Origin: Escherichia coli | GTDB taxonomy: Bacteria > Pseudomonadota > Gammaproteobacteria > Enterobacterales > Enterobacteriaceae | DNA: 64,000 bases | NCBI RefSeq assembly: GCF_041886205.1 | Contig: NZ_CP169029.1 | Reading direction: 5' to 3' (one strand) | In this document: one piece after another, positions 1-56,836 of the stretch | Position numbering within the stretch: position 1 is the first letter of the stretch | How the letters are laid out: each line of letters begins with the position of its first letter | Program-made: the position numbers and the translations under genes | The notes under the pieces: generated by a model | Databases searched by the model: none | What the model saw: the letters and a program-made list of their open reading frames with translations, nothing else | What the model was told of the DNA's origin: nothing

Positions 1-1313
1 GCGATCTGGCCTCTAACATCCTGCTGGATATTGGTACGCTTTATCTTTTGAAGTTTTATACCGACGTTCTGGGGCTACCTGGCACCTATGGCGGCATTAT
101 CTTTTTGATCTCGAAATTCTTTACCGCCTTTACCGATATGGGAACCGGCATCATGTTGGATTCCCGGCGTAAGATTGGCCCGAAAGGTAAGTTCCGCCCT
201 TTCATTTTGTACGCGTCATTCCCGGTCACCTTATTGGCAATCGCTAACTTTATCGGCACACCGTTCGATGTCACTGGTAAAACGGTGATGGCCACTATTC
301 TGTTTATGCTCTACGGGCTGTTTTTCAGCATGATGAACTGCTCCTATGGCGCGATGGTGCCTGCTATTACCAAAAACCCCAACGAGCGCGCATCACTGGC
401 GGCATGGCGTCAGGGAGGCGCTACGCTGGGCCTGCTGCTGTGCACGGTGGGATTCGTGCCGGTTATGAATCTTATCGAAGGTAATCAGCAACTTGGCTAT
501 ATCTTCGCCGCCACGCTGTTTTCACTGTTCGGCCTGCTGTTTATGTGGATCTGCTACTCGGGCGTGAAAGAGCGTTATGTCGAAACCCAACCAGCCAATC
601 CGGCGCAAAAGCCTGGCCTGCTGCAATCTTTCCGCGCAATTGCCGGTAACCGCCCACTGTTCATTCTGTGCATTGCCAACCTCTGCACTTTAGGGGCGTT
701 TAACGTCAAGCTCGCCATCCAGGTCTATTACACCCAGTACGTACTTAACGATCCCATCCTGTTGTCATATATGGGATTTTTCAGCATGGGCTGTATTTTC
801 ATCGGTGTGTTCCTGATGCCTGGCGCAGTCAGGCGTTTTGGTAAGAAGAAGGTCTATATCGGCGGCCTGCTGATTTGGGTGCTGGGCGATCTGCTCAACT
901 ATTTCTTCGGCGGCGGTTCGGTCAGCTTCGTGGCGTTCTCCTGCCTGGCGTTCTTTGGCTCAGCGTTTGTTAACAGCCTGAACTGGGCGCTGGTTTCCGA
1001 CACCGTCGAGTACGGCGAGTGGCGCACCGGCGTGCGTTCGGAAGGAACGGTCTACACCGGTTTTACCTTCTTTCGCAAAGTGTCTCAGGCGCTGGCTGGT
1101 TTCTTCCCCGGCTGGATGCTGACGCAAATTGGCTATGTGCCGAACGTCGCACAGGCTGACCACACCATTGAAGGGTTACGCCAGTTGATCTTCATCTATC
1201 CAAGCGCACTGGCGGTAGTCACCATTGTGGCGATGGGTTGCTTCTACAGCCTGAACGAGAAGATGTATGTCCGCATTGTGGAAGAGATAGAAGCCCGTAA
1301 ACGCACGGCGTAA
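1..1313 (+). CDS. yihP: MFS/GPH-family sugar transporter, 5'-truncated by window edge (sulfoquinovose cluster member)
   Basis: ORF 48..1313 stays open to the window start in the same frame; paralogous to the next ORF (shared LKFYTD...GGIIFL...FTAFTDM...GPKGKFRPF motifs); position upstream of yihO-ompL. Confidence 0.8.
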   Translation, partial: DLASNILLDIGTLYLLKFYTDVLGLPGTYGGIIFLISKFFTAFTDMGTGIMLDSRRKIGPKGKFRPFILYASFPVTLLAIANFIGTPFDVTGKTVMATILFMLYGLFFSMMNCSYGAMVPAITKNPNERASLAAWRQGGATLGLLLCTVGFVPVMNLIEGNQQLGYIFAATLFSLFGLLFMWICYSGVKERYVETQPANPAQKPGLLQSFRAIAGNRPLFILCIANLCTLGAFNVKLAIQVYYTQYVLNDPILLSYMGFFSMGCIFIGVFLMPGAVRRFGKKKVYIGGLLIWVLGDLLNYFFGGGSVSFVAFSCLAFFGSAFVNSLNWALVSDTVEYGEWRTGVRSEGTVYTGFTFFRKVSQALAGFFPGWMLTQIGYVPNVAQADHTIEGLRQLIFIYPSALAVVTIVAMGCFYSLNEKMYVRIVEEIEARKRTA

Positions 1314-1355
1314 TAATAATAAACGACGCCCTGCGGGGCGTTATAAGGAGTGATT

Positions 1356-2759
1356 ATGTCTGACCATAATCCACTGACATTAAAACTGAATCTGCGGGAA
1401 AAAATCGCCTATGGTATGGGCGACGTCGGTTCGAATTTAATGCTCTGCATCGGTACTCTGTATCTCCTCAAATTTTATACCGATGAATTAGGGATGCCTG
1501 CTTACTATGGCGGGATTATCTTTCTGGTGGCGAAGTTTTTTACCGCGTTTACCGATATGCTCACCGGATTTTTACTCGACTCGCGGAAAAATATTGGGCC
1601 TAAAGGCAAATTTCGTCCCTTTATTTTATATGCAGCGGTTCCGGCGGCGTTAATTGCAACGCTCCAGTTTATCGCCACCACCTTTTGTTTGCCGGTTAAA
1701 ACGACGATTGCCACCGCGCTGTTTATGATGTTTGGACTTTCATACAGTCTGATGAACTGCTCGTATGGTGCGATGATCCCGGCAATTACCAAAAACCCGA
1801 ATGAGCGCGCGCAGCTCGCGGCTTACCGCCAGGGTGGTGCAACCATAGGGCTATTGATTTGTACCGTGGCGTTTATTCCGTTGCAGTCGCTTTTTTCTGA
1901 CTCAACCGTCGGTTATGCCTGTGCGGCACTTATATTCTCCATTGGCGGCTTTATTTTTATGATGCTGTGCTACAGAGGCGTCAAAGAGCATTATGTGGAC
2001 ACAACGCCAACCGGACATAAAGCCAGTATTCTCAAATCATTTTGCGCGATATTTCGGAATCCGCCATTGCTGGTTTTATGCATTGCTAACTTGTGTACCC
2101 TGGCGGCATTTAATATCAAACTGGCGATTCAGGTCTATTACACCCAGTATGTGCTGAATGATATTAATTTATTGTCGTGGATGGGATTCTTCAGTATGGG
2201 ATGCATCCTCATCGGCGTATTACTGGTGCCATTAACTGTAAAATGTTTTGGTAAAAAACAGGTTTATCTGGCTGGCATGGTGCTGTGGGCGGTGGGTGAT
2301 ATACTGAATTATTTCTGGGGAAGTAACTCTTTCACTTTCGTCATGTTCTCTTGTGTCGCCTTTTTTGGCACGGCCTTTGTAAACAGCCTGAACTGGGCAC
2401 TGGTACCAGATACCGTAGATTACGGTGAATGGAAAACCGGTATTCGTGCCGAAGGTTCTGTTTATACCGGTTATACCTTCTTTCGTAAAATTTCTGCCGC
2501 ACTTGCTGGCTTCTTGCCAGGCATTATGCTGACGCAAATTGGTTATGTTCCCAACATCGCGCAAAGCGATGCGACATTACAGGGTTTGCGTCAGCTCATT
2601 TTTATCTGGCCTTGTGCACTGGCAATTATTGCTGCATTGACGATGGGATTCTTTTACACACTCAATGAAAAACGGTTTGCATTGATTATTGAGGAAATCA
2701 ACCAACGCAAAAATAAAGAGATGGCGACAGAAGAAAAAACGGCTTCCGTAACGTTATAA
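1356..2759 (+). CDS. yihO: MFS/GPH-family transporter (sulfoquinovose cluster)
   Basis: 467-aa product from ATG 1356 with AAGGAG Shine-Dalgarno at 1345..1350; track ORF begins at an upstream GTG (1350); recognised YihO sequence. Confidence 0.85.
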   Translation: MSDHNPLTLKLNLREKIAYGMGDVGSNLMLCIGTLYLLKFYTDELGMPAYYGGIIFLVAKFFTAFTDMLTGFLLDSRKNIGPKGKFRPFILYAAVPAALIATLQFIATTFCLPVKTTIATALFMMFGLSYSLMNCSYGAMIPAITKNPNERAQLAAYRQGGATIGLLICTVAFIPLQSLFSDSTVGYACAALIFSIGGFIFMMLCYRGVKEHYVDTTPTGHKASILKSFCAIFRNPPLLVLCIANLCTLAAFNIKLAIQVYYTQYVLNDINLLSWMGFFSMGCILIGVLLVPLTVKCFGKKQVYLAGMVLWAVGDILNYFWGSNSFTFVMFSCVAFFGTAFVNSLNWALVPDTVDYGEWKTGIRAEGSVYTGYTFFRKISAALAGFLPGIMLTQIGYVPNIAQSDATLQGLRQLIFIWPCALAIIAALTMGFFYTLNEKRFALIIEEINQRKNKEMATEEKTASVTL

Positions 2760-2826
2760 ATGTCAATAGCCGCTATTTCCATCCTGGTGGGTGGCGGCCT
2801 CCCTACGTTTAAAAAATGGACTTATT

Positions 2827-3519
2827 ATGAAAAAGATTAATGCAATAATTTTATTATCTTCTCTGACCTCTGCCTCGGTATTTGCTGGCGCATACGTCGA
2901 AAACAGGGAGGCATATAATCTTGCCTCCGATCAGGGCGAGGTTATGCTACGTGTGGGTTATAACTTCGATATGGGCGCGGGTATTATGTTAACCAATACC
3001 TACAACTTTCAGCGAGAAGATGAACTAAAACATGGATATAACGAAATTGAAGGCTGGTATCCGTTATTTAAACCAACCGATAAATTAACCATCCAGCCCG
3101 GTGGCTTAATTAATGATAAGAGTATCGGTTCGGGTGGTGCAGTGTATCTGGACGTCAACTATAAATTTGTACCATGGTTTAATCTGACAGTACGAAATCG
3201 CTATAACCATAATAACTATAGTTCAACAGATTTGAGCGGGGAACTGGATAATAATGACACCTATGAAATTGGCACCTACTGGAATTTTAAAATCACCGAT
3301 AAATTTTCCTATACATTTGAGCCACATTACTTCATGCGAGTGAATGACTTTAATAGTAGCAACGGGAAAGATCATCATTGGGAAATCACTAACACCTTCC
3401 GTTACCGTATTAATGAACACTGGCTCCCTTATTTCGAATTGCGCTGGTTAGACCGCAACGTCGAACCGTACCACCGCGAGCAAAACCAGATCCGTATCGG
3501 GACGAAGTATTTCTTCTGA
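2827..3519 (+). CDS. ompL: outer-membrane porin OmpL
   Basis: 230-aa product from MKKINAIILLSS with a signal-peptide-like N-terminus and C-terminal aromatic residue (..KYFF); ORF track starts 12 codons upstream. Confidence 0.85.
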   Translation: MKKINAIILLSSLTSASVFAGAYVENREAYNLASDQGEVMLRVGYNFDMGAGIMLTNTYNFQREDELKHGYNEIEGWYPLFKPTDKLTIQPGGLINDKSIGSGGAVYLDVNYKFVPWFNLTVRNRYNHNNYSSTDLSGELDNNDTYEIGTYWNFKITDKFSYTFEPHYFMRVNDFNSSNGKDHHWEITNTFRYRINEHWLPYFELRWLDRNVEPYHREQNQIRIGTKYFF

Positions 3520-3528
3520 TGTGAAACT

Positions 3529-3606
<78 letters not shown>

Positions 3607-3609
3607 TAA

Positions 3610-4875
3610 TTAAGCTTCAGCCGCCAGCATCTCTTTCTTACGTTGGCTAATACGCTTAACCAGCATTACGGAAACCACCGCACCACTGAATGCGAAGCAG
3701 GCCATAATGCCAAACACGATTTTGTAGCCAATAATCCCCGGATTTAAATCCAGAATGTAGCCATACAGACTGAAGCAGAACATCGCCGGAGCGTAACCAA
3801 TAAAGCTACCCAACGCCATCGCCGCACCTGTTTTATTTTCAGCAATTTTTGCTTCGCCGATAGGTGCAAAAAATACGGCTCGCTGTGTAAAGACTATCGC
3901 GCCAAAGCCCAGCGTACATGCCATCCCTAAATAGACCGGCATACTTTCGTGCGGCAGCATAATCAACAGTACGAGCGCAGCGGTACTAATGATAAAGGTG
4001 TAGCATAGATATTTACTTGGCGATTTCAGGATCTTATCTGAAATCATGCCACCAATCGGTCCACCAATCATTTTCAGACAGTATTGGTTAATGATGCCGT
4101 AAGCCCCCACCAGCGCAACGGGCAATAGATAGATGTTTTTCAGGAATGGAATGAAGAATGTCAGGCCACAGTAAACCGCGTAAACGAAGAAGACGTTAAA
4201 AGCGATAAGCCAGATAGTTTTGTCTTTCAGCACCGAGGTCATACTGGTGTTTTTCGATGCTCCGTCTTCTTTTTTCACCTCAACGGACGGTGCCTCTTCT
4301 TTGTCATTCAGAACAAAGAAAATGATAATGCCTACGGCAATCACAATAAGGGAATAGAACCAGATGCCTGCTTTAAAACCCAATAAGCCACTGCCAAACC
4401 AGGTAAATACTGCCAACGCAGAAAATGCCACCACGGTATCGACAATGCCACGCCCTGTTTCGAAGAAGCCAAACAACCGACCTTGTTGTTCGCTATTGCC
4501 CAATCGACTTACCGACTTGAGCAAGACCGGCCAGTTCATCATGTCGCAAGTAACGCCAAATAGCGCCCAGACAAAGAGGATGCCCCAATACCCCGGCATT
4601 GTCGTCAAATAAACACCCAGTAATCCTGTCGCAATGAGTGAGAATGACATGGTGTATCTGCGCGGTAGTTTATCGGCAAAATAAATAGACAGAAAAAAAC
4701 CCACTGTCGTGACAAATGAGTTTACCGACATAGCATTACCAATTTGACCATTGGTCAAATGGAAATATTCCTGCATCGGGATATAAAACGCATCTTTCAG
4801 CGACGGTAATTTATAAATTGTACCGCCACACAATGTTAATAGACTAAATAACGCCCATTTCTTTTTCGTGAGCAT
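3610..4875 (-). CDS. yihN: MFS transporter, uncharacterised substrate
   Basis: 421-aa hydrophobic multi-span ORF; conserved position after yihM. Confidence 0.85.
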   Translation of the reverse strand: MLTKKKWALFSLLTLCGGTIYKLPSLKDAFYIPMQEYFHLTNGQIGNAMSVNSFVTTVGFFLSIYFADKLPRRYTMSFSLIATGLLGVYLTTMPGYWGILFVWALFGVTCDMMNWPVLLKSVSRLGNSEQQGRLFGFFETGRGIVDTVVAFSALAVFTWFGSGLLGFKAGIWFYSLIVIAVGIIIFFVLNDKEEAPSVEVKKEDGASKNTSMTSVLKDKTIWLIAFNVFFVYAVYCGLTFFIPFLKNIYLLPVALVGAYGIINQYCLKMIGGPIGGMISDKILKSPSKYLCYTFIISTAALVLLIMLPHESMPVYLGMACTLGFGAIVFTQRAVFFAPIGEAKIAENKTGAAMALGSFIGYAPAMFCFSLYGYILDLNPGIIGYKIVFGIMACFAFSGAVVSVMLVKRISQRKKEMLAAEA

Positions 4876-6675: not shown

Positions 6676-6841
6676 TGTTTAATCCTTTTGGTTTAAACCA
6701 GATGAAGCATCTTACGCTTACGCCAAAAAAGAAAGCAATTAACGGCGTATGACTTTGCAGATAATTGTGACAAAGCTCTCTATTGACGTAATCCCAGACT
6801 TATAAGGGAGATACTCGCATTGGTGTGCGCTCACGACAGGT

Positions 6842-6874
6842 AAAAAAAAACCTGCCAGCGATGGCAGGTTTTTT
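6842..6874 (-). terminator. rho-independent terminator downstream of typA (hairpin CCTGCCAGCGATGGCAGG flanked by A/T runs)
   Basis: perfect inverted repeat 6851..6868 followed by a U-run on the minus-strand transcript. Confidence 0.6.
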
Positions 6875-6891
6875 ATAACTAAAAAACGAAA

Positions 6892-8715
6892 TTAATCGTC
6901 TTTCGGTGCGCGGTTGGCGCGACGACGATCGTTTTCAGTCAGGTGACGTTTACGAATACGGATAGAGGTCGGAGTCACTTCTACCAGTTCGTCATCATCG
7001 ATGAACTCCAGAGCTTGTTCCAGAGTCATGCGGATAGGCGGAACCAGAACAACGGCTTCGTCAGTACCGGAAGCACGCATGTTGGTCAGTTTCTTACCAG
7101 TCAGGCAGTTTACCGTCAGGTCGTTAGAGCGGCTGTGAATACCGATAATCTGACCTTCGTAAACTTCTGCACCGTGACCGAGGAACAGCTTACCGCGATC
7201 CTGCAGACCGAACAGCGCGAACGCGACCGCTTTACCCTGACCGTTAGAGATCAGTACGCCGTTCTGACGCTGACCCACTTCACCCGGACGTACGTCGTCG
7301 TAGTGGCTGAAGGTGGAGTACAGCAGACCAGTACCGGAAGTCATGGTCATGAACTCAGAACGGAAGCCAATCAGACCACGGCTTGGGATCACGTAGTCGA
7401 GACGTACGCGGCCTTTACCGTCTGGATTCATGTTTTTCAGGTCGCCTTTACGTTCGCCCAGCGCCTGCATTACAGAACCCTGATGCTGTTCTTCAACGTC
7501 CAGAGTCACGTTTTCATACGGCTCTTGTTTACGACCGTCGATTTCACGGAAGATAACTTTCGGACGGGATACCGCCAGTTCGAAACCTTCACGACGCATG
7601 TTTTCGATCAGAACAGACAGGTGTAGTTCGCCACGACCAGAAACGCGGAACGCATCAGCGTCTTCGGTTTCTTCTACGCGCAGCGCAACGTTGTGTACCA
7701 GTTCTTTGTTCAGACGATCCAGGATCTGACGAGACGTTACGAACTTACCTTCTTTACCGCAGAACGGCGAGGTGTTAACGCAGAAGAACATAGAAACGGT
7801 CGGCTCATCAACGGAGAGTGCCGGCAGCGCTTCAACGTTTTGCGTGTCGCAAACGGTGTCAGAAATGTTCAGTTCGCCCAGGCCCGTGATCGCCACGATA
7901 TCGCCAGCTTCCGCCAGATCGGTTTCGATACGTTCCAGACCGAGGTGGCCCAGCACTTTACCGACTTTCGCGTTACGGGTTTTGCCTTCGCTATCGATGA
8001 TAGTGACCTGCTGGTTCGGCTTCACTTTACCGCGCTTGATGCGGCCAATGCCGATAACGCCAACATAGCTGTTGTAATCGAGCTGAGAAATCTGCATCTG
8101 GAACGGACCGTCAAGGTCAACGTCCGGCGCAGGAACGTGATCAACAATCGCCTGATACAGCGGGGTCATGTCTTCCGCCATATCTTCGTGGTCCAGACCC
8201 GCGATACCGTTCAGCGCAGAAGCGTAAACGATCGGGAAGTCCAGCTGCTCGTCGGTCGCGTCGAGGTTAACGAACAGATCGAATACCTGATCCACAACCC
8301 AATCAGGACGCGCGCCAGGGCGGTCAACTTTGTTGATAACAACAATCGGCTTCAGGCCGTAAGCAAACGCTTTTTTGGTTACGAAGCGCGTTTGCGGCAT
8401 CGGGCCGTCAAATGCGTCAACCACCAGCAGCACTGAGTCTACCATGGACATTACACGTTCAACTTCACCACCGAAGTCGGCGTGCCCCGGGGTATCAACG
8501 ATGTTGATACGGTAATCATTCCATTTGATAGCGGTGTTTTTCGCGAGGATGGTAATCCCACGCTCTTTCTCCAAATCGTTGGAGTCCATCACGCGCTCTT
8601 GGGTTTCGGCACGAGAGTCGAACGTACCGGATTGTTGGAGCAGCTTGTCTACCAGGGTGGTTTTACCATGGTCTACGTGCGCGATGATGGCGATATTACG
8701 CAATTTTTCGATCAC
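6892..8715 (-). CDS. typA: ribosome-associated translational GTPase BipA/TypA
   Basis: 607-aa ORF with GTPase motifs ([18 protein letters not shown]); divergent from glnA. Confidence 0.95.
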
Positions 8716-13378: not shown

Positions 13379-13480
<102 letters not shown>

Positions 13481-39208: not shown

Positions 39209-39392
<184 letters not shown>

Positions 39393-43158: not shown

Positions 43159-43199
43159 CCTGTACTCCATATGACAACCGCCCTGACGGGCGGTTGAAT

Positions 43200-55517: not shown

Positions 55518-55608
55518 ACTGGAAAACTCTTTGATTAACGAGTATCCATTGTAGCGAAGTATCAGGTTGACAACTGTTTAATGTTTGCTCAATCGTGTGC
55601 GTTTTTAC

Positions 55609-55971
55609 TCATCGTCCAACGTTACCCGCTGCAACGAAAAGTAGTTGATTAATAATGGATTCACGCGCGCTCTCCACGCTCAGATTCCAGTACTTGGTGT
55701 CGAGAGCCAGTTTCATAAAAGGCGCGTGCCAGTCTTGTTCTCTTTTTTCAAAAACCACTTCAGCGACTTTATAGCCCGTCCAGCTACGATACAAATGCAA
55801 AACGTTATTCTCAAAATAGATAAACCATTTGTATTCCATCGCTGGAGGAATAAACCCCATTTCCAGATTACGCATTTGCGCTTCATCTAACGTCAAATTA
55901 AGCTCAACCCTCTGCCAGTCAACGGTAAATGCTTTGAGGTTATGCCAGCTTTGCTTCGTCGCTTTTGTCAT
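55609..55971 (-). CDS. hypothetical protein (120 aa from MTKATKQSWHNLKAF..), not recognised
   Basis: only long ORF in the 518-bp yigL-yigM spacer; Trp-rich (6 W), AT-richer than neighbours, weak SD (AGGGAA); unclear whether it is an annotated gene. Confidence 0.35.
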   Translation of the reverse strand: MTKATKQSWHNLKAFTVDWQRVELNLTLDEAQMRNLEMGFIPPAMEYKWFIYFENNVLHLYRSWTGYKVAEVVFEKREQDWHAPFMKLALDTKYWNLSVESARESIINQLLFVAAGNVGR

Positions 55972-56035
55972 GCGTATTCCCTGCCTGGTTTTTAAGTGCT
56001 CTCCCGCAATCAACGTAATGCGGGAGAGGCTGGCA

Positions 56036-56836
56036 TTAACTGAGATAGAGTTTACGCAGATAATGCGGTACCGCGTCGTCGGCATTAGTACCAATCACTT
56101 CCAGCTCTGGATGCAGATCTTTCAGCCGTTGATGCGCGCTGCCCATAATGCAGCCTTTCCCCGCCATCGACAGCATTTCGGCGTCGTTCATCCCGTCACC
56201 AAAGGCAATACAATCCTTCAGGCTGTAGCCCAGTTTCTTCGCCACCGCTTCCAGCGCATGGCCTTTCGACACGCCGCCCGCCATCACTTCCAGACAGGTT
56301 AAGGTAGAGAAACTGACGTTGACGCGATCGCCCCAGCGAGCGTTAATCGCCTGCTCCAGCGGCAGCAGTTGTTCATGGGAATCGCAGGTGAAGAACACTT
56401 TGCTGACGCCTTCCGGCTCCAGTAATCCAGGCTCATACAGCGCATATTTGAACACCGCTTCTTTAAAAAAGCGCATCTCTTCCGGGCGATGGCGATTCAT
56501 AAACCATTCGTCGTCGCGATAAACGTTAGTAATGATGTCCGGATTGTCGTTGACCACACCAAACAGATCGCTGGCAATGTCGCGATCCAGGTTATGAGCA
56601 AAAATCAGATTACCATCCAGATCGTGAACGCGCGCGCCATTGGAGGTAATCATGTAAGACTTGATCTCCAGATTATCGCGAATTTGCCCCACATCGACGT
56701 GATGGCGACCAGTCGCAAACACAAAGTTGATACCGCGCGCGGTAAGCAGCTTCAGAGTTTCTTTGGCGTAAGGAGATAACGTATGGTCGGGAGAAAGTAA
56801 CGTGCCATCTAAATCAGACGCAACAACCTGGTACAT
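56036..56836 (-). CDS. yigL: HAD-superfamily (Cof-type) sugar/pyridoxal phosphate phosphatase
   Basis: 266-aa product from MYQVVASDLDGTLL (HAD motif I DxDGT); track ORF is extended 42 codons upstream into pldB. Confidence 0.88.
   Translation of the reverse strand: MYQVVASDLDGTLLSPDHTLSPYAKETLKLLTARGINFVFATGRHHVDVGQIRDNLEIKSYMITSNGARVHDLDGNLIFAHNLDRDIASDLFGVVNDNPDIITNVYRDDEWFMNRHRPEEMRFFKEAVFKYALYEPGLLEPEGVSKVFFTCDSHEQLLPLEQAINARWGDRVNVSFSTLTCLEVMAGGVSKGHALEAVAKKLGYSLKDCIAFGDGMNDAEMLSMAGKGCIMGSAHQRLKDLHPELEVIGTNADDAVPHYLRKLYLS

What the first reader, a model, noticed from the sequence alone, without database searches (positions are those of the whole stretch)
1..3519. Distal end of the sulfoquinovose catabolic cluster (yihP, yihO, ompL)
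Two paralogous GPH-family MFS transporters followed by a porin gene. In E. coli K-12 these belong to the yihO-yihW sulfoquinovose (sulfoglycolysis) locus; the rest (yihQ to yihW) lies beyond the window start. yihP ends in four consecutive in-frame TAA codons (1311..1322), followed by a short hairpin (ACGCCCTGCGGGGCGT, 1323..1338) and a strong AAGGAG Shine-Dalgarno for yihO.
Basis: partly seen in the sequence, partly recalled or inferred. Interest (0 to 1): 0.3.

Follow-up and report, generated by a model that had tools for sequence, protein, structure and literature searches.

The report
Known E. coli sulfoquinovose transporter genes
This stretch is the already-annotated yihP–yihO–ompL transport end of the E. 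coli sulfoquinovose (plant sulfosugar) utilisation cluster, essentially as in strain K-12; the only mildly new point is that the small RNA hairpins between the genes are conserved across many enterobacteria.

Summary
Window 1-3519 carries yihP (first 73 nt missing), yihO and ompL on the + strand. It matches MG1655 at 98.9% without gaps, and both intergenic spacers are identical to K-12. (TAA)4 is at 1311-1322 and AAGGAG at 1345-1350. The hairpin sequence is right, but it lies at 1326-1341, not 1323-1338.

YihP and YihO are 66% identical GPH-family paralogues, and OmpL is a KdgM-family porin. All three genes are sulfoquinovose-induced in K-12 according to published RNA-seq. Their substrates remain unproven.

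Three further points:
- The TAA run is a polymorphic microsatellite, with 3 copies in E. coli B and interrupted forms in other strains.
- The hairpin is not a + strand intrinsic terminator, because no U tract follows it.
- Across 31 Enterobacterales species the hairpin is kept by compensatory base changes, always 12-14 nt before the yihO start codon. Comparable hairpins sit at the yihQ-yihP and yihO-ompL junctions.

These hairpins most likely act as intra-operon mRNA decay barriers or attenuators that grade expression. That mechanism is an inference and was not tested.

Verdict: already known locus, low interest.

The parts
3..1313 (+). yihP, 3' 1,311 nt including the stop. The first 73 nt of the gene lie before the window. 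GPH-family MFS transporter, annotated as putative DHPS exporter.
1311..1322 (+). (TAA)4: the yihP stop codon plus three further in-frame TAA codons. A polymorphic trinucleotide repeat and an A/U-rich spacer.
1325..1342 (+). Intercistronic RNA hairpin. Core ACGCCC-UGCG-GGGCGU at 1326-1341 plus a G.U closing pair. No U tract follows. Conserved by covariation in Enterobacterales.
1345..1350 (+). AAGGAG Shine-Dalgarno sequence of yihO, 5 nt before the ATG.
   Evidence: conserved as GAGGA/AAGGA
1356..2759 (+). yihO, 467 aa. GPH-family MFS transporter, annotated as putative sulfoquinovose importer.
2769..2798 (+). Second intercistronic hairpin (GCCGCUAUUUCCAUC...GGGUGGCGGC) in the 67-nt yihO-ompL spacer. 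A hairpin occupies this position in other genera, with different inner-stem sequences.
2827..3519 (+). ompL, 230 aa. KdgM-family outer-membrane porin with an N-terminal signal-peptide-like segment (MKKINAIILLSSLTSASVFA).
3529..3605 (.). REP-type palindrome (3529-3558) and a second GC-rich hairpin (3581-3605) between the convergent genes ompL and yihN. This marks the end of the operon.
3610..4875 (-). yihN, a convergent MFS transporter gene. It is not part of the sulfoquinovose cluster and marks its boundary.

Best explanation
Window 1-3519 is the promoter-distal transport module of the E. coli sulfo-EMP (sulfoquinovose) gene cluster.

Gene content: a 5'-truncated yihP, then yihO, then ompL, all on one strand with spacers of 42 and 67 nt. 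A REP palindrome and the convergent gene yihN close the unit.

Likely roles:
- OmpL, a KdgM-type porin, most likely lets sulfoquinovose or its glycosides cross the outer membrane.
- YihO and YihP are 66%-identical GPH-family carriers that move the sulfosugar and/or its glycosides inward.
- In the standard model YihP exports the end product DHPS.
- These substrate assignments are inferred from family membership, gene context and induction. They have not been measured.

The four TAA codons are a slippage-prone A/U-rich repeat. Only its first codon matters for termination.

The GC-rich hairpin after the repeat is a selected RNA structure on the mRNA strand, and similar hairpins occupy the other junctions of the yihQ-yihP-yihO-ompL transcript. 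The most likely function (inferred, about 0.4) is as an intra-operon barrier to 3'-to-5' decay and/or a weak attenuator, so that mRNA abundance falls stepwise along the operon (glycosidase > carriers > porin).
For: Identity and context:
- Searches give near-identity to annotated E. coli genomes, identical spacers and upstream yihQ-yihW.
- Induction: ompL, yihO and yihP have log2FC of at least 5 on sulfoquinovose in K-12 (PMC12608037).
- Synteny yihS-(yihR)-(tauE)-yihQ-yihP-yihO-ompL is conserved across Enterobacterales.

Hairpin at the yihP-yihO junction, 31 species:
- 93.1% of cells are paired, against 40-53% when partners are slid.
- 5 of 8 pairs show changes on both sides.
- There are 22 compensatory cells against 7.3 +/- 3.2 in shuffles, reached by 0 of 500 shuffles.
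- In the seven core pairs there are 11 G.U cells and no A.C cells, which points to the + (mRNA) strand.
- 21 of 31 loops are UGCG, UACG or UUCG.
- The stem ends 12-14 nt before the ATG in all 31 sequences.
- The median folding z-score of 44 junctions is -2.34.

Other junctions:
- Hairpins are also present at the yihQ-yihP and yihO-ompL junctions in many genera.
- At yihQ-yihP, pair 6 is CG 19 / UA 8 and pair 7 is GC 12 / AU 12 / CG 4.

Expression gradient: raw RNA-seq counts on sulfoquinovose (Table S3 of PMC12608037), divided by gene lengths, give about 337, 150, 113 and 27 reads per kb for yihQ, yihP, yihO and ompL.

Precedent: protective intra-operon hairpins, including consecutive ones with graded abundance (menBCE), are established in E. 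coli (PMC5927463).
Against: - No transport assay exists for YihO, YihP or OmpL in the literature searched.
- The abundance drop across the yihP-yihO hairpin is only about 25%. It rests on two replicates of raw counts, and ordinary polarity could explain it.
- No 3'-end or half-life data for this operon were found.
- Seven species have a short yihP-yihO spacer with no hairpin at all (L020, L046, L047, L057, L069, L070, L097), so the element is dispensable.
- The nearly fixed 12-14 nt distance to the start codon suggests a link to the ribosome-binding site that a pure decay barrier does not need.
Confidence: 0.85

Rival explanations
1. The hairpin serves the downstream gene. In one version it is the protected 5' end of a processed yihO-ompL mRNA, after endonuclease cleavage in the A/U-rich tract, as in papBA. 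In another it is a structural part of the yihO translation-initiation region, such as a standby site or a block to ribosomes coming from yihP.
For: The distance from stem to ATG is fixed at 12-14 nt in 31 of 31 species, whereas the distance from stop codon to stem ranges from 5 to 15 nt. An A/U-rich single-stranded tract lies directly 5' of the stem in the Escherichia, Citrobacter, Klebsiella and Salmonella group. The papBA-type 5' protective hairpin is an established mechanism (PMC5927463).
Against: In-silico disruption of the 5' arm does not lower predicted accessibility of the ribosome-binding site. Mean unpaired probability over positions -13 to +3 is 0.33 for wild type and 0.40 for the mutant, and wild type is higher in only 10 of 32 species. 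yihO reads per kb are lower than yihP, not higher. The (UAA)n tract does not match the RN|WUU RNase E motif quoted.
Confidence: 0.25
2. The hairpin is a leaky intrinsic transcription terminator that reduces read-through into yihO and ompL.
For: The stem is GC-rich with a stable tetraloop. mRNA abundance declines stepwise along the operon. In one Anaerobiospirillum genome the same junction carries a hairpin followed by T8 (L014).
Against: On the + strand the stem is followed by UUAUAAGGAG, or UAUGAGGAU in other genera, with no U tract. The consensus scan calls it terminator-like only on the - strand. The G.U versus A.C asymmetry argues against the - strand. The yihP-to-yihO drop is only about 25%. 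A hairpin 12-14 nt past a stop codon lies where terminating ribosomes are reported to suppress termination (abstract of PMC4824070).
Confidence: 0.12
3. The TAA run and the hairpin are neutral by-products with no function: a slippage repeat and a chance palindrome.
For: The TAA copy number varies within E. coli (3 copies in strain B; TAA TTA TAA TAA in AR_0067). Several species have no hairpin.
Against: This reading is plausible for the TAA run. For the hairpin it does not fit: pairing is kept through double-sided substitutions in distant genera, extra-stable loop types are enriched, and two other junctions of the same operon show analogous conserved hairpins.
Confidence: 0.08
4. This rival concerns the protein annotation. 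YihP would be a second cation-coupled importer, for example one paralogue for free sulfoquinovose and one for SQ-glycerol, rather than the DHPS exporter.
For: YihP scores 522 bits on the GPH:cation symporter model and is 66% identical to YihO. The pathway requires import of glycosides for intracellular cleavage by YihQ (PMC8006165). Many clusters, including the closest genome 6EVA, carry a TauE/SafE-family gene next to yihQ or yihP that could export the sulfonate. The YihP export role 'has not been experimentally characterized'.
Against: K-12 lacks the TauE/SafE gene, yet the literature describes it as excreting DHPS, so some exporter in or outside the cluster is needed. Reviews still assign export to YihP. 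Nothing here tests substrate or direction of transport.
Confidence: 0.3

Closest known systems
E. coli K-12 MG1655 ompL-yihO-yihP (b3875-b3877), the transport end of the sulfo-EMP cluster ompL/yihO-yihW
   Same: Same genes, order, strand relationships and lengths. Identity is 98.9% over 9.1 kb without gaps. The yihP-yihO and yihO-ompL spacers are identical, including (TAA)4, the hairpin and the Shine-Dalgarno sequence.
   Different: Only scattered SNPs. The window's nearest relative (6EVA, 99.9%) has an extra TauE/SafE-family gene between yihR and yihQ that K-12 lacks. Whether the window's own genome has that gene cannot be seen.
Intra-operon protective RNA structures (malE-malF REP; menBCE consecutive hairpins; Dar and Sorek 2018, PMC5927463)
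   Same: Stable stem-loops at cistron boundaries of a polycistronic mRNA, conserved among enterobacteria. Several occur in one operon, accompanied by a graded fall in mRNA abundance.
   Different: No decay or 3'-end data exist for the yih operon. These hairpins are short (6-9 bp) and lie entirely in the spacers, directly against the next Shine-Dalgarno sequence. Many hairpins in that study lie inside the downstream ORF.
papBA-type 5' protective hairpin generated by RNase E cleavage
   Same: An A/U-rich stretch followed by a hairpin just upstream of the downstream cistron.
   Different: No good RN|WUU site is present, and the downstream gene is not the more abundant one.
GPH:cation symporters MelB, UidB/GusB and YagG
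   Same: Same family model, TIGR00792 and Pfam MFS_2.
   Different: Scores are far below the equivalog cut-offs for MelB (198 and 221 against 456) and the glucuronide transporter (284 and 290 against 528). YihO and YihP are therefore a separate subfamily with a different, untested substrate.
KdgM/KdgN oligogalacturonate porins
   Same: OmpL matches Pfam KdgM (PF06178) end to end, E = 3e-91.
   Different: It sits in a sulfosugar cluster rather than a pectin cluster, and its substrate specificity is unknown.

Membership tests
GPH (glycoside-pentoside-hexuronide):cation symporter family, TC 2.A.2 | Full-length match to the family HMM above the curated cut-off | tested here: met
   TIGR00792 scores: YihP fragment 521.9 bits and YihO 530.4 bits against a cut-off of 231.35. 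Pfam MFS_2 E-values are 1e-75 and 2e-79.
GPH (glycoside-pentoside-hexuronide):cation symporter family, TC 2.A.2 | About 12 transmembrane helices | tested here: inconclusive
   A crude Kyte-Doolittle scan finds 11 hydrophobic peaks in YihO, some of them overlapping. No dedicated topology predictor was available.
GPH (glycoside-pentoside-hexuronide):cation symporter family, TC 2.A.2 | Cation-coupled transport of a glycoside or sugar | not testable with these tools
   No transport data were found in the literature searched.
E. coli sulfo-EMP (sulfoquinovose) gene cluster ompL/yihO-yihW | [quoted passage not shown] | tested here: met
   Shown in MG1655 and in the 99.9%-identical strain 6EVA, and as conserved synteny in other genera. 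The window itself ends inside yihP.
E. coli sulfo-EMP (sulfoquinovose) gene cluster ompL/yihO-yihW | Induction by growth on sulfoquinovose | not testable with these tools
   Published for K-12: log2FC of 7.3 for ompL and 7.9 for yihO, and counts of 1-3 rising to about 200 for yihP (PMC12608037). The window's regulatory and intergenic DNA within range is identical to K-12.
KdgM-family outer-membrane porin (OmpL) | Full-length HMM match above cut-off, plus an N-terminal signal sequence | tested here: met
   NF007434 'porin OmpL' equivalog at 472.4 bits against a cut-off of 288. PF06178 covers residues 14-230 of 230. The hydrophobic N-terminus ending in VFA-G was judged by eye.
Rho-independent (intrinsic) terminator | GC-rich hairpin immediately followed by a U tract on the transcribed strand | tested here: not met
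   On the + strand the stem is followed by UUAUAAGGAG. The scan reports the site only on the - strand, where the TAA repeat reads as a T-rich tail. The same lack of a U tract holds in 31 orthologous junctions.
Intra-operon protective or attenuating RNA hairpin | Stable stem-loop at a cistron boundary, maintained by selection | tested here: met
   z = -2.54 in E. coli and a median z of -2.34 over 44 species. The strand asymmetry is 11 G.U cells against 0 A.C cells.
Intra-operon protective or attenuating RNA hairpin | RNA 3' ends or decay intermediates at the hairpin, with different half-lives on either side | not testable with these tools
   Only indirect evidence: reads per kb fall 337 > 150 > 113 > 27 along yihQ, yihP, yihO and ompL.
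REP/BIME dispersed palindromes | Membership of a dispersed repeat family (for the hairpin at 1326-1341) | tested here: not met
   There is no Rfam hit at 1300-1360 at E <= 1. With up to 2 mismatches, the only other match in the window is one at 43179, within chance expectation. The true REP-like element lies at 3529-3558.

The most novel reading that the evidence does not exclude
The three covarying, U-tract-less hairpins at the yihQ-yihP, yihP-yihO and yihO-ompL junctions may form a conserved post-transcriptional programme across Enterobacterales. In this reading they act as decay barriers or attenuators placed just outside the footprint of the terminating ribosome and directly against the next Shine-Dalgarno sequence. 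The result would be a fixed stoichiometry of sulfoquinovosidase > inner-membrane carriers > porin from a single sulfoquinovose-induced transcript. This has not been described for this operon in the literature I could search.
Probability: 0.4. Interest if true: 0.3.

Novelty: already known. Interest (0 to 1): 0.13.

Why it matters
As an annotation the finding adds nothing. The genes, their order and even the spacers are those of K-12, and the cluster has been studied since 2014.

Two modest points may be useful to people working on sulfoglycolysis:
- The transport assignments that databases repeat (YihO imports sulfoquinovose, YihP exports DHPS) are still untested. Many clusters carry a TauE/SafE-type candidate sulfonate exporter next to yihP, which makes the YihP assignment worth testing.
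- The operon carries conserved intercistronic RNA hairpins. These offer a simple, mutationally testable explanation for the graded mRNA levels seen in published RNA-seq.

Tried and rejected
1. Long-range pairing. The E. coli MFE fold pairs the yihP stop region (1307-1314) with the yihO start region (1353-1360), which would be a possible translational-coupling helix. Across 31 species only 63% of cells pair, with almost no compensatory change. Rejected.

2. Hairpin as an insulator that exposes the ribosome-binding site. In-silico disruption of the 5' arm did not reduce predicted accessibility; if anything it increased it. Not supported, although the test is crude.

3. Rfam. No family matches at either intergenic hairpin at E <= 1.

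4. Dispersed-repeat origin of the hairpin. Not supported.

5. RNAalifold on a MAFFT alignment of yihO-ompL spacers recovered only the outer GCC/GGC stem, because the inner stems differ in length and sequence and were misaligned. For that hairpin I rely on the per-sequence folds, which is weaker evidence than for the yihP-yihO hairpin.

6. - strand terminator reading. Disfavoured by the G.U versus A.C asymmetry and by the UNCG loops, which exist only on the + strand.

7. Literature. I found no paper that links yihP or yihO with a hairpin or terminator. The paper I recall on REP elements near stop codons causing ribosome stalling (Liang, Rudd and Deutscher 2015) was not in the library, so that idea rests on memory only.

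8. Technical. The first two scripts failed because locus L002 had not yet been copied to the script machine.
Full report
OBSERVATION. The ORF list and raw sequence show three same-strand genes in 1-3519.
- An ORF is open from the window edge, in frame from position 3, and ends at TAA 1311-1313.
- A 467-codon ORF runs from ATG 1356 to 2759.
- A 230-codon ORF runs from ATG 2827 to 3519.

TAATAATAATAA sits at exactly 1311-1322, in frame with the first ORF. It occurs once in the window and never in 100 dinucleotide-preserving shuffles. Of 79 long ORFs in the window, 72 end in one stop, 6 in two, and only this one in four.

RNAfold adds a G.U closing pair, giving 1325-1342 with loop UGCG. AAGGAG is at 1345-1350, five bases before the ATG.

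IDENTITY. Megablast against 5,426 complete E. coli genomes finds the 3.6-kb stretch in 3,874 of them. Strain 6EVA is the best match at 99.9%, and the genes are annotated yihP, yihO and ompL. The window is collinear with MG1655 from 4,067,121 downwards, at 98.9% over 9,122 nt without a gap. It therefore lacks the first 73 nt of yihP. Both intergenic spacers are identical to MG1655 and to 6EVA.

In MG1655 and 6EVA the DNA just upstream of yihP carries yihQ, yihR, yihS, yihT and yihU, then divergent yihV and csqR. Downstream lie a REP-type palindrome and a second hairpin (3529-3605) and then the convergent yihN, yihM and yihL genes.

PROTEIN FAMILIES. YihP and YihO are 66% identical. Both score over 520 bits on the GPH:cation symporter model (cut-off 231). 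Both fall far below the equivalog cut-offs for MelB and the glucuronide transporter. OmpL matches the OmpL equivalog and Pfam KdgM end to end.

The two paralogues differ in composition: GC3 is 0.67 for yihP and 0.50 for yihO, and third codon positions are only 40% identical. Orthologues of YihP are also closer to the E. coli protein (85-93%) than orthologues of YihO (74-83%). The duplication is therefore old.

WHAT IS KNOWN. A 2025 study describes a 'long' cassette (ompL-yihOPQRSTUVW) and a 'short' one (yihTUVW) at the same chromosomal site (PMC12608037). My count of 71% of complete genomes carrying the transport genes fits that picture. In K-12 the three genes are strongly induced on sulfoquinovose. 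The substrate assignments remain predictions: a 2021 preprint states that neither carrier has been characterised, and a 2026 review still only cites the original proposal for YihP as DHPS exporter.

THE TAA RUN. The run is not conserved as such within E. coli.
- Strain B has (TAA)3.
- AR_0067 has TAA TTA TAA TAA.
- WP7-S17 has a different arrangement.

Relatives show similar A/T-rich trinucleotide tracts.
- Citrobacter and Klebsiella spallanzanii have TGA TAA TAA TAA TGA.
- E. whittamii has TAA TAA TGA TAA TAA.
- Enterobacter-type genomes have a single stop.

The run therefore behaves as a slippage-prone spacer. Only the first stop codon has an evident role.

THE HAIRPIN. I scanned one genome per species for a peptide motif shared by both carriers. 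This returned 93 loci, nearly all Enterobacterales. Forty-four carry both genes in tandem, and 31, including the window, have a 36-47 nt spacer with a hairpin in the same place.

On that alignment the 8-pair stem gives the following results.
- 93.1% of cells are paired, against 40-53% when the partners are slid by 1-3 columns.
- Five pairs change on both sides. Pair 29-46 is GC 17, AU 12, GU 2 and is never unpaired.
- There are 22 compensatory cells against 7.3 +/- 3.2 in shuffles, reached by 0 of 500 shuffles.

Further properties:
- The seven core pairs contain 11 G.U cells and no A.C cells, so the structure is read on the mRNA strand.
- 21 of 31 loops are UGCG, UACG or UUCG.
- The stem ends 12-14 nt before the ATG in every species and begins 5-15 nt after the stop codon, with a median of 14.
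- Across all 44 junctions the median folding z-score is -2.34.
- Seven species have a 9-23 nt spacer with no hairpin. Yersinia, Serratia and Mixta have a longer spacer with a different long palindrome. One Anaerobiospirillum genome has a true hairpin-plus-T8 terminator.

OTHER JUNCTIONS. Hairpins without U tracts also occupy the yihQ-yihP spacer (outside the window; E. coli sequence) and the yihO-ompL spacer (window 2769-2798) in many genera.

At yihQ-yihP, nine stacked pairs are canonical in 25-30 of 30 species. Compensatory changes are clear at pair 6 (CG 19, UA 8) and pair 7 (GC 12, AU 12, CG 4). These pairs were taken from per-sequence folds, which leans towards the structure.

At yihO-ompL the outer GCCGCC/GGCGGC or GGCC/GGCC stem is kept. 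The inner stem is entirely different in different clades, for example CCAUC/GAUGG, CCUUCCUG/CAGGAGGG and CCUUCAUGC/GCAUGAGGG. A sequence-based alignment could not capture this.

MECHANISM. What is shown is that the hairpins are selected RNA structures on the sense strand. The rest is inference.
- They are not classical terminators, because no U tract follows on the + strand.
- They are not known RNA families and not dispersed repeats.
- A translational-coupling helix suggested by the E. coli fold is not conserved.
- Disrupting the stem in silico does not lower predicted accessibility of the ribosome-binding site.

Published raw RNA-seq counts on sulfoquinovose, divided by gene length, give about 337, 150, 113 and 27 reads per kb for yihQ, yihP, yihO and ompL. 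That is a step down at each hairpin, though only about 25% at the yihP-yihO hairpin.

Intra-operon protective hairpins that block 3' exonucleases are documented in E. coli and conserved in Salmonella and Enterobacter. Consecutive hairpins with graded abundance are also documented (PMC5927463). I therefore favour a decay-barrier or weak-attenuator role, at about 0.4. A role tied to the yihO initiation region or to a processed 5' end is the main rival, at about 0.25, because the distance to the start codon is so tightly fixed.

COMPARISON AND NOVELTY. At most, the conserved hairpins are further examples of a known kind of element. I found no paper that mentions them.

VERDICT. The locus is of low interest.

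Noticed in passing
window 55577-56044: A roughly 440-bp insertion lies between yigL and bioP relative to MG1655. It carries a 120-161 aa ORF on the - strand at 55609-56094, annotated only as 'hypothetical protein'. It is present full-length in just 8 of 5,426 complete E. coli genomes and has no Pfam match.
   Followed up: partly
L001 9862-10737 (strain 6EVA, upstream of the window); also L013, L020, L040, L046, L051, L062, L070, L085, L086 and L097: A TauE/SafE-family 'sulfite exporter' gene sits inside the sulfoquinovose cluster in the closest E. coli genome and in many Enterobacterales, either between yihR and yihQ or between yihQ and yihP. It is absent from K-12. It is a candidate sulfonate exporter and bears on the untested 'YihP exports DHPS' annotation.
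   Followed up: partly
window 3-1313 versus 1356-2759: The two paralogous carrier genes differ strongly in codon composition: GC3 is 0.67 for yihP, 0.50 for yihO and 0.46 for ompL. YihP orthologues are consistently more conserved than YihO orthologues, at 85-93% against 74-83% identity to E. coli.
   Followed up: partly
window 6839-6907 (- strand): An Rfam STnc370 match just at the gathering score (54.9 against 54) coincides with the hairpin at the 3' end of typA/bipA, in the yihL-typA spacer.
   Followed up: no
window 3529-3605: A REP-type palindrome (sub-threshold naRNA4 match) and a second GC-rich hairpin lie between the convergent genes ompL and yihN. Together they fold with z = -3.85.
   Followed up: partly
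hit H3, NZ_AP027800.1 (E. coli 2017.10.01CC): In this strain yihO is split by an IS5-family transposase insertion.
   Followed up: no
window 8797-46734: The rest of the window is the K-12-like region containing ES222, CsrC, Spot 42, the rrnA operon with tRNA-Ile and tRNA-Ala, two full naRNA4/REP325-type elements (13400-13477 and 39261-39338) and EsrE. It is collinear with MG1655 apart from small indels.
   Followed up: no
L008, L074, L096 (Yersinia), L037 (Serratia), L042 (Mixta): In these genera the yihP-yihO spacer is 87-153 nt. It carries a different, long palindrome (for example AACCCGCUUAUGGCAGGCUCCGG...CCGGAGGUAAGCGGGUU) in place of the short hairpin. It may be a lineage-specific repeat element.
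   Followed up: no
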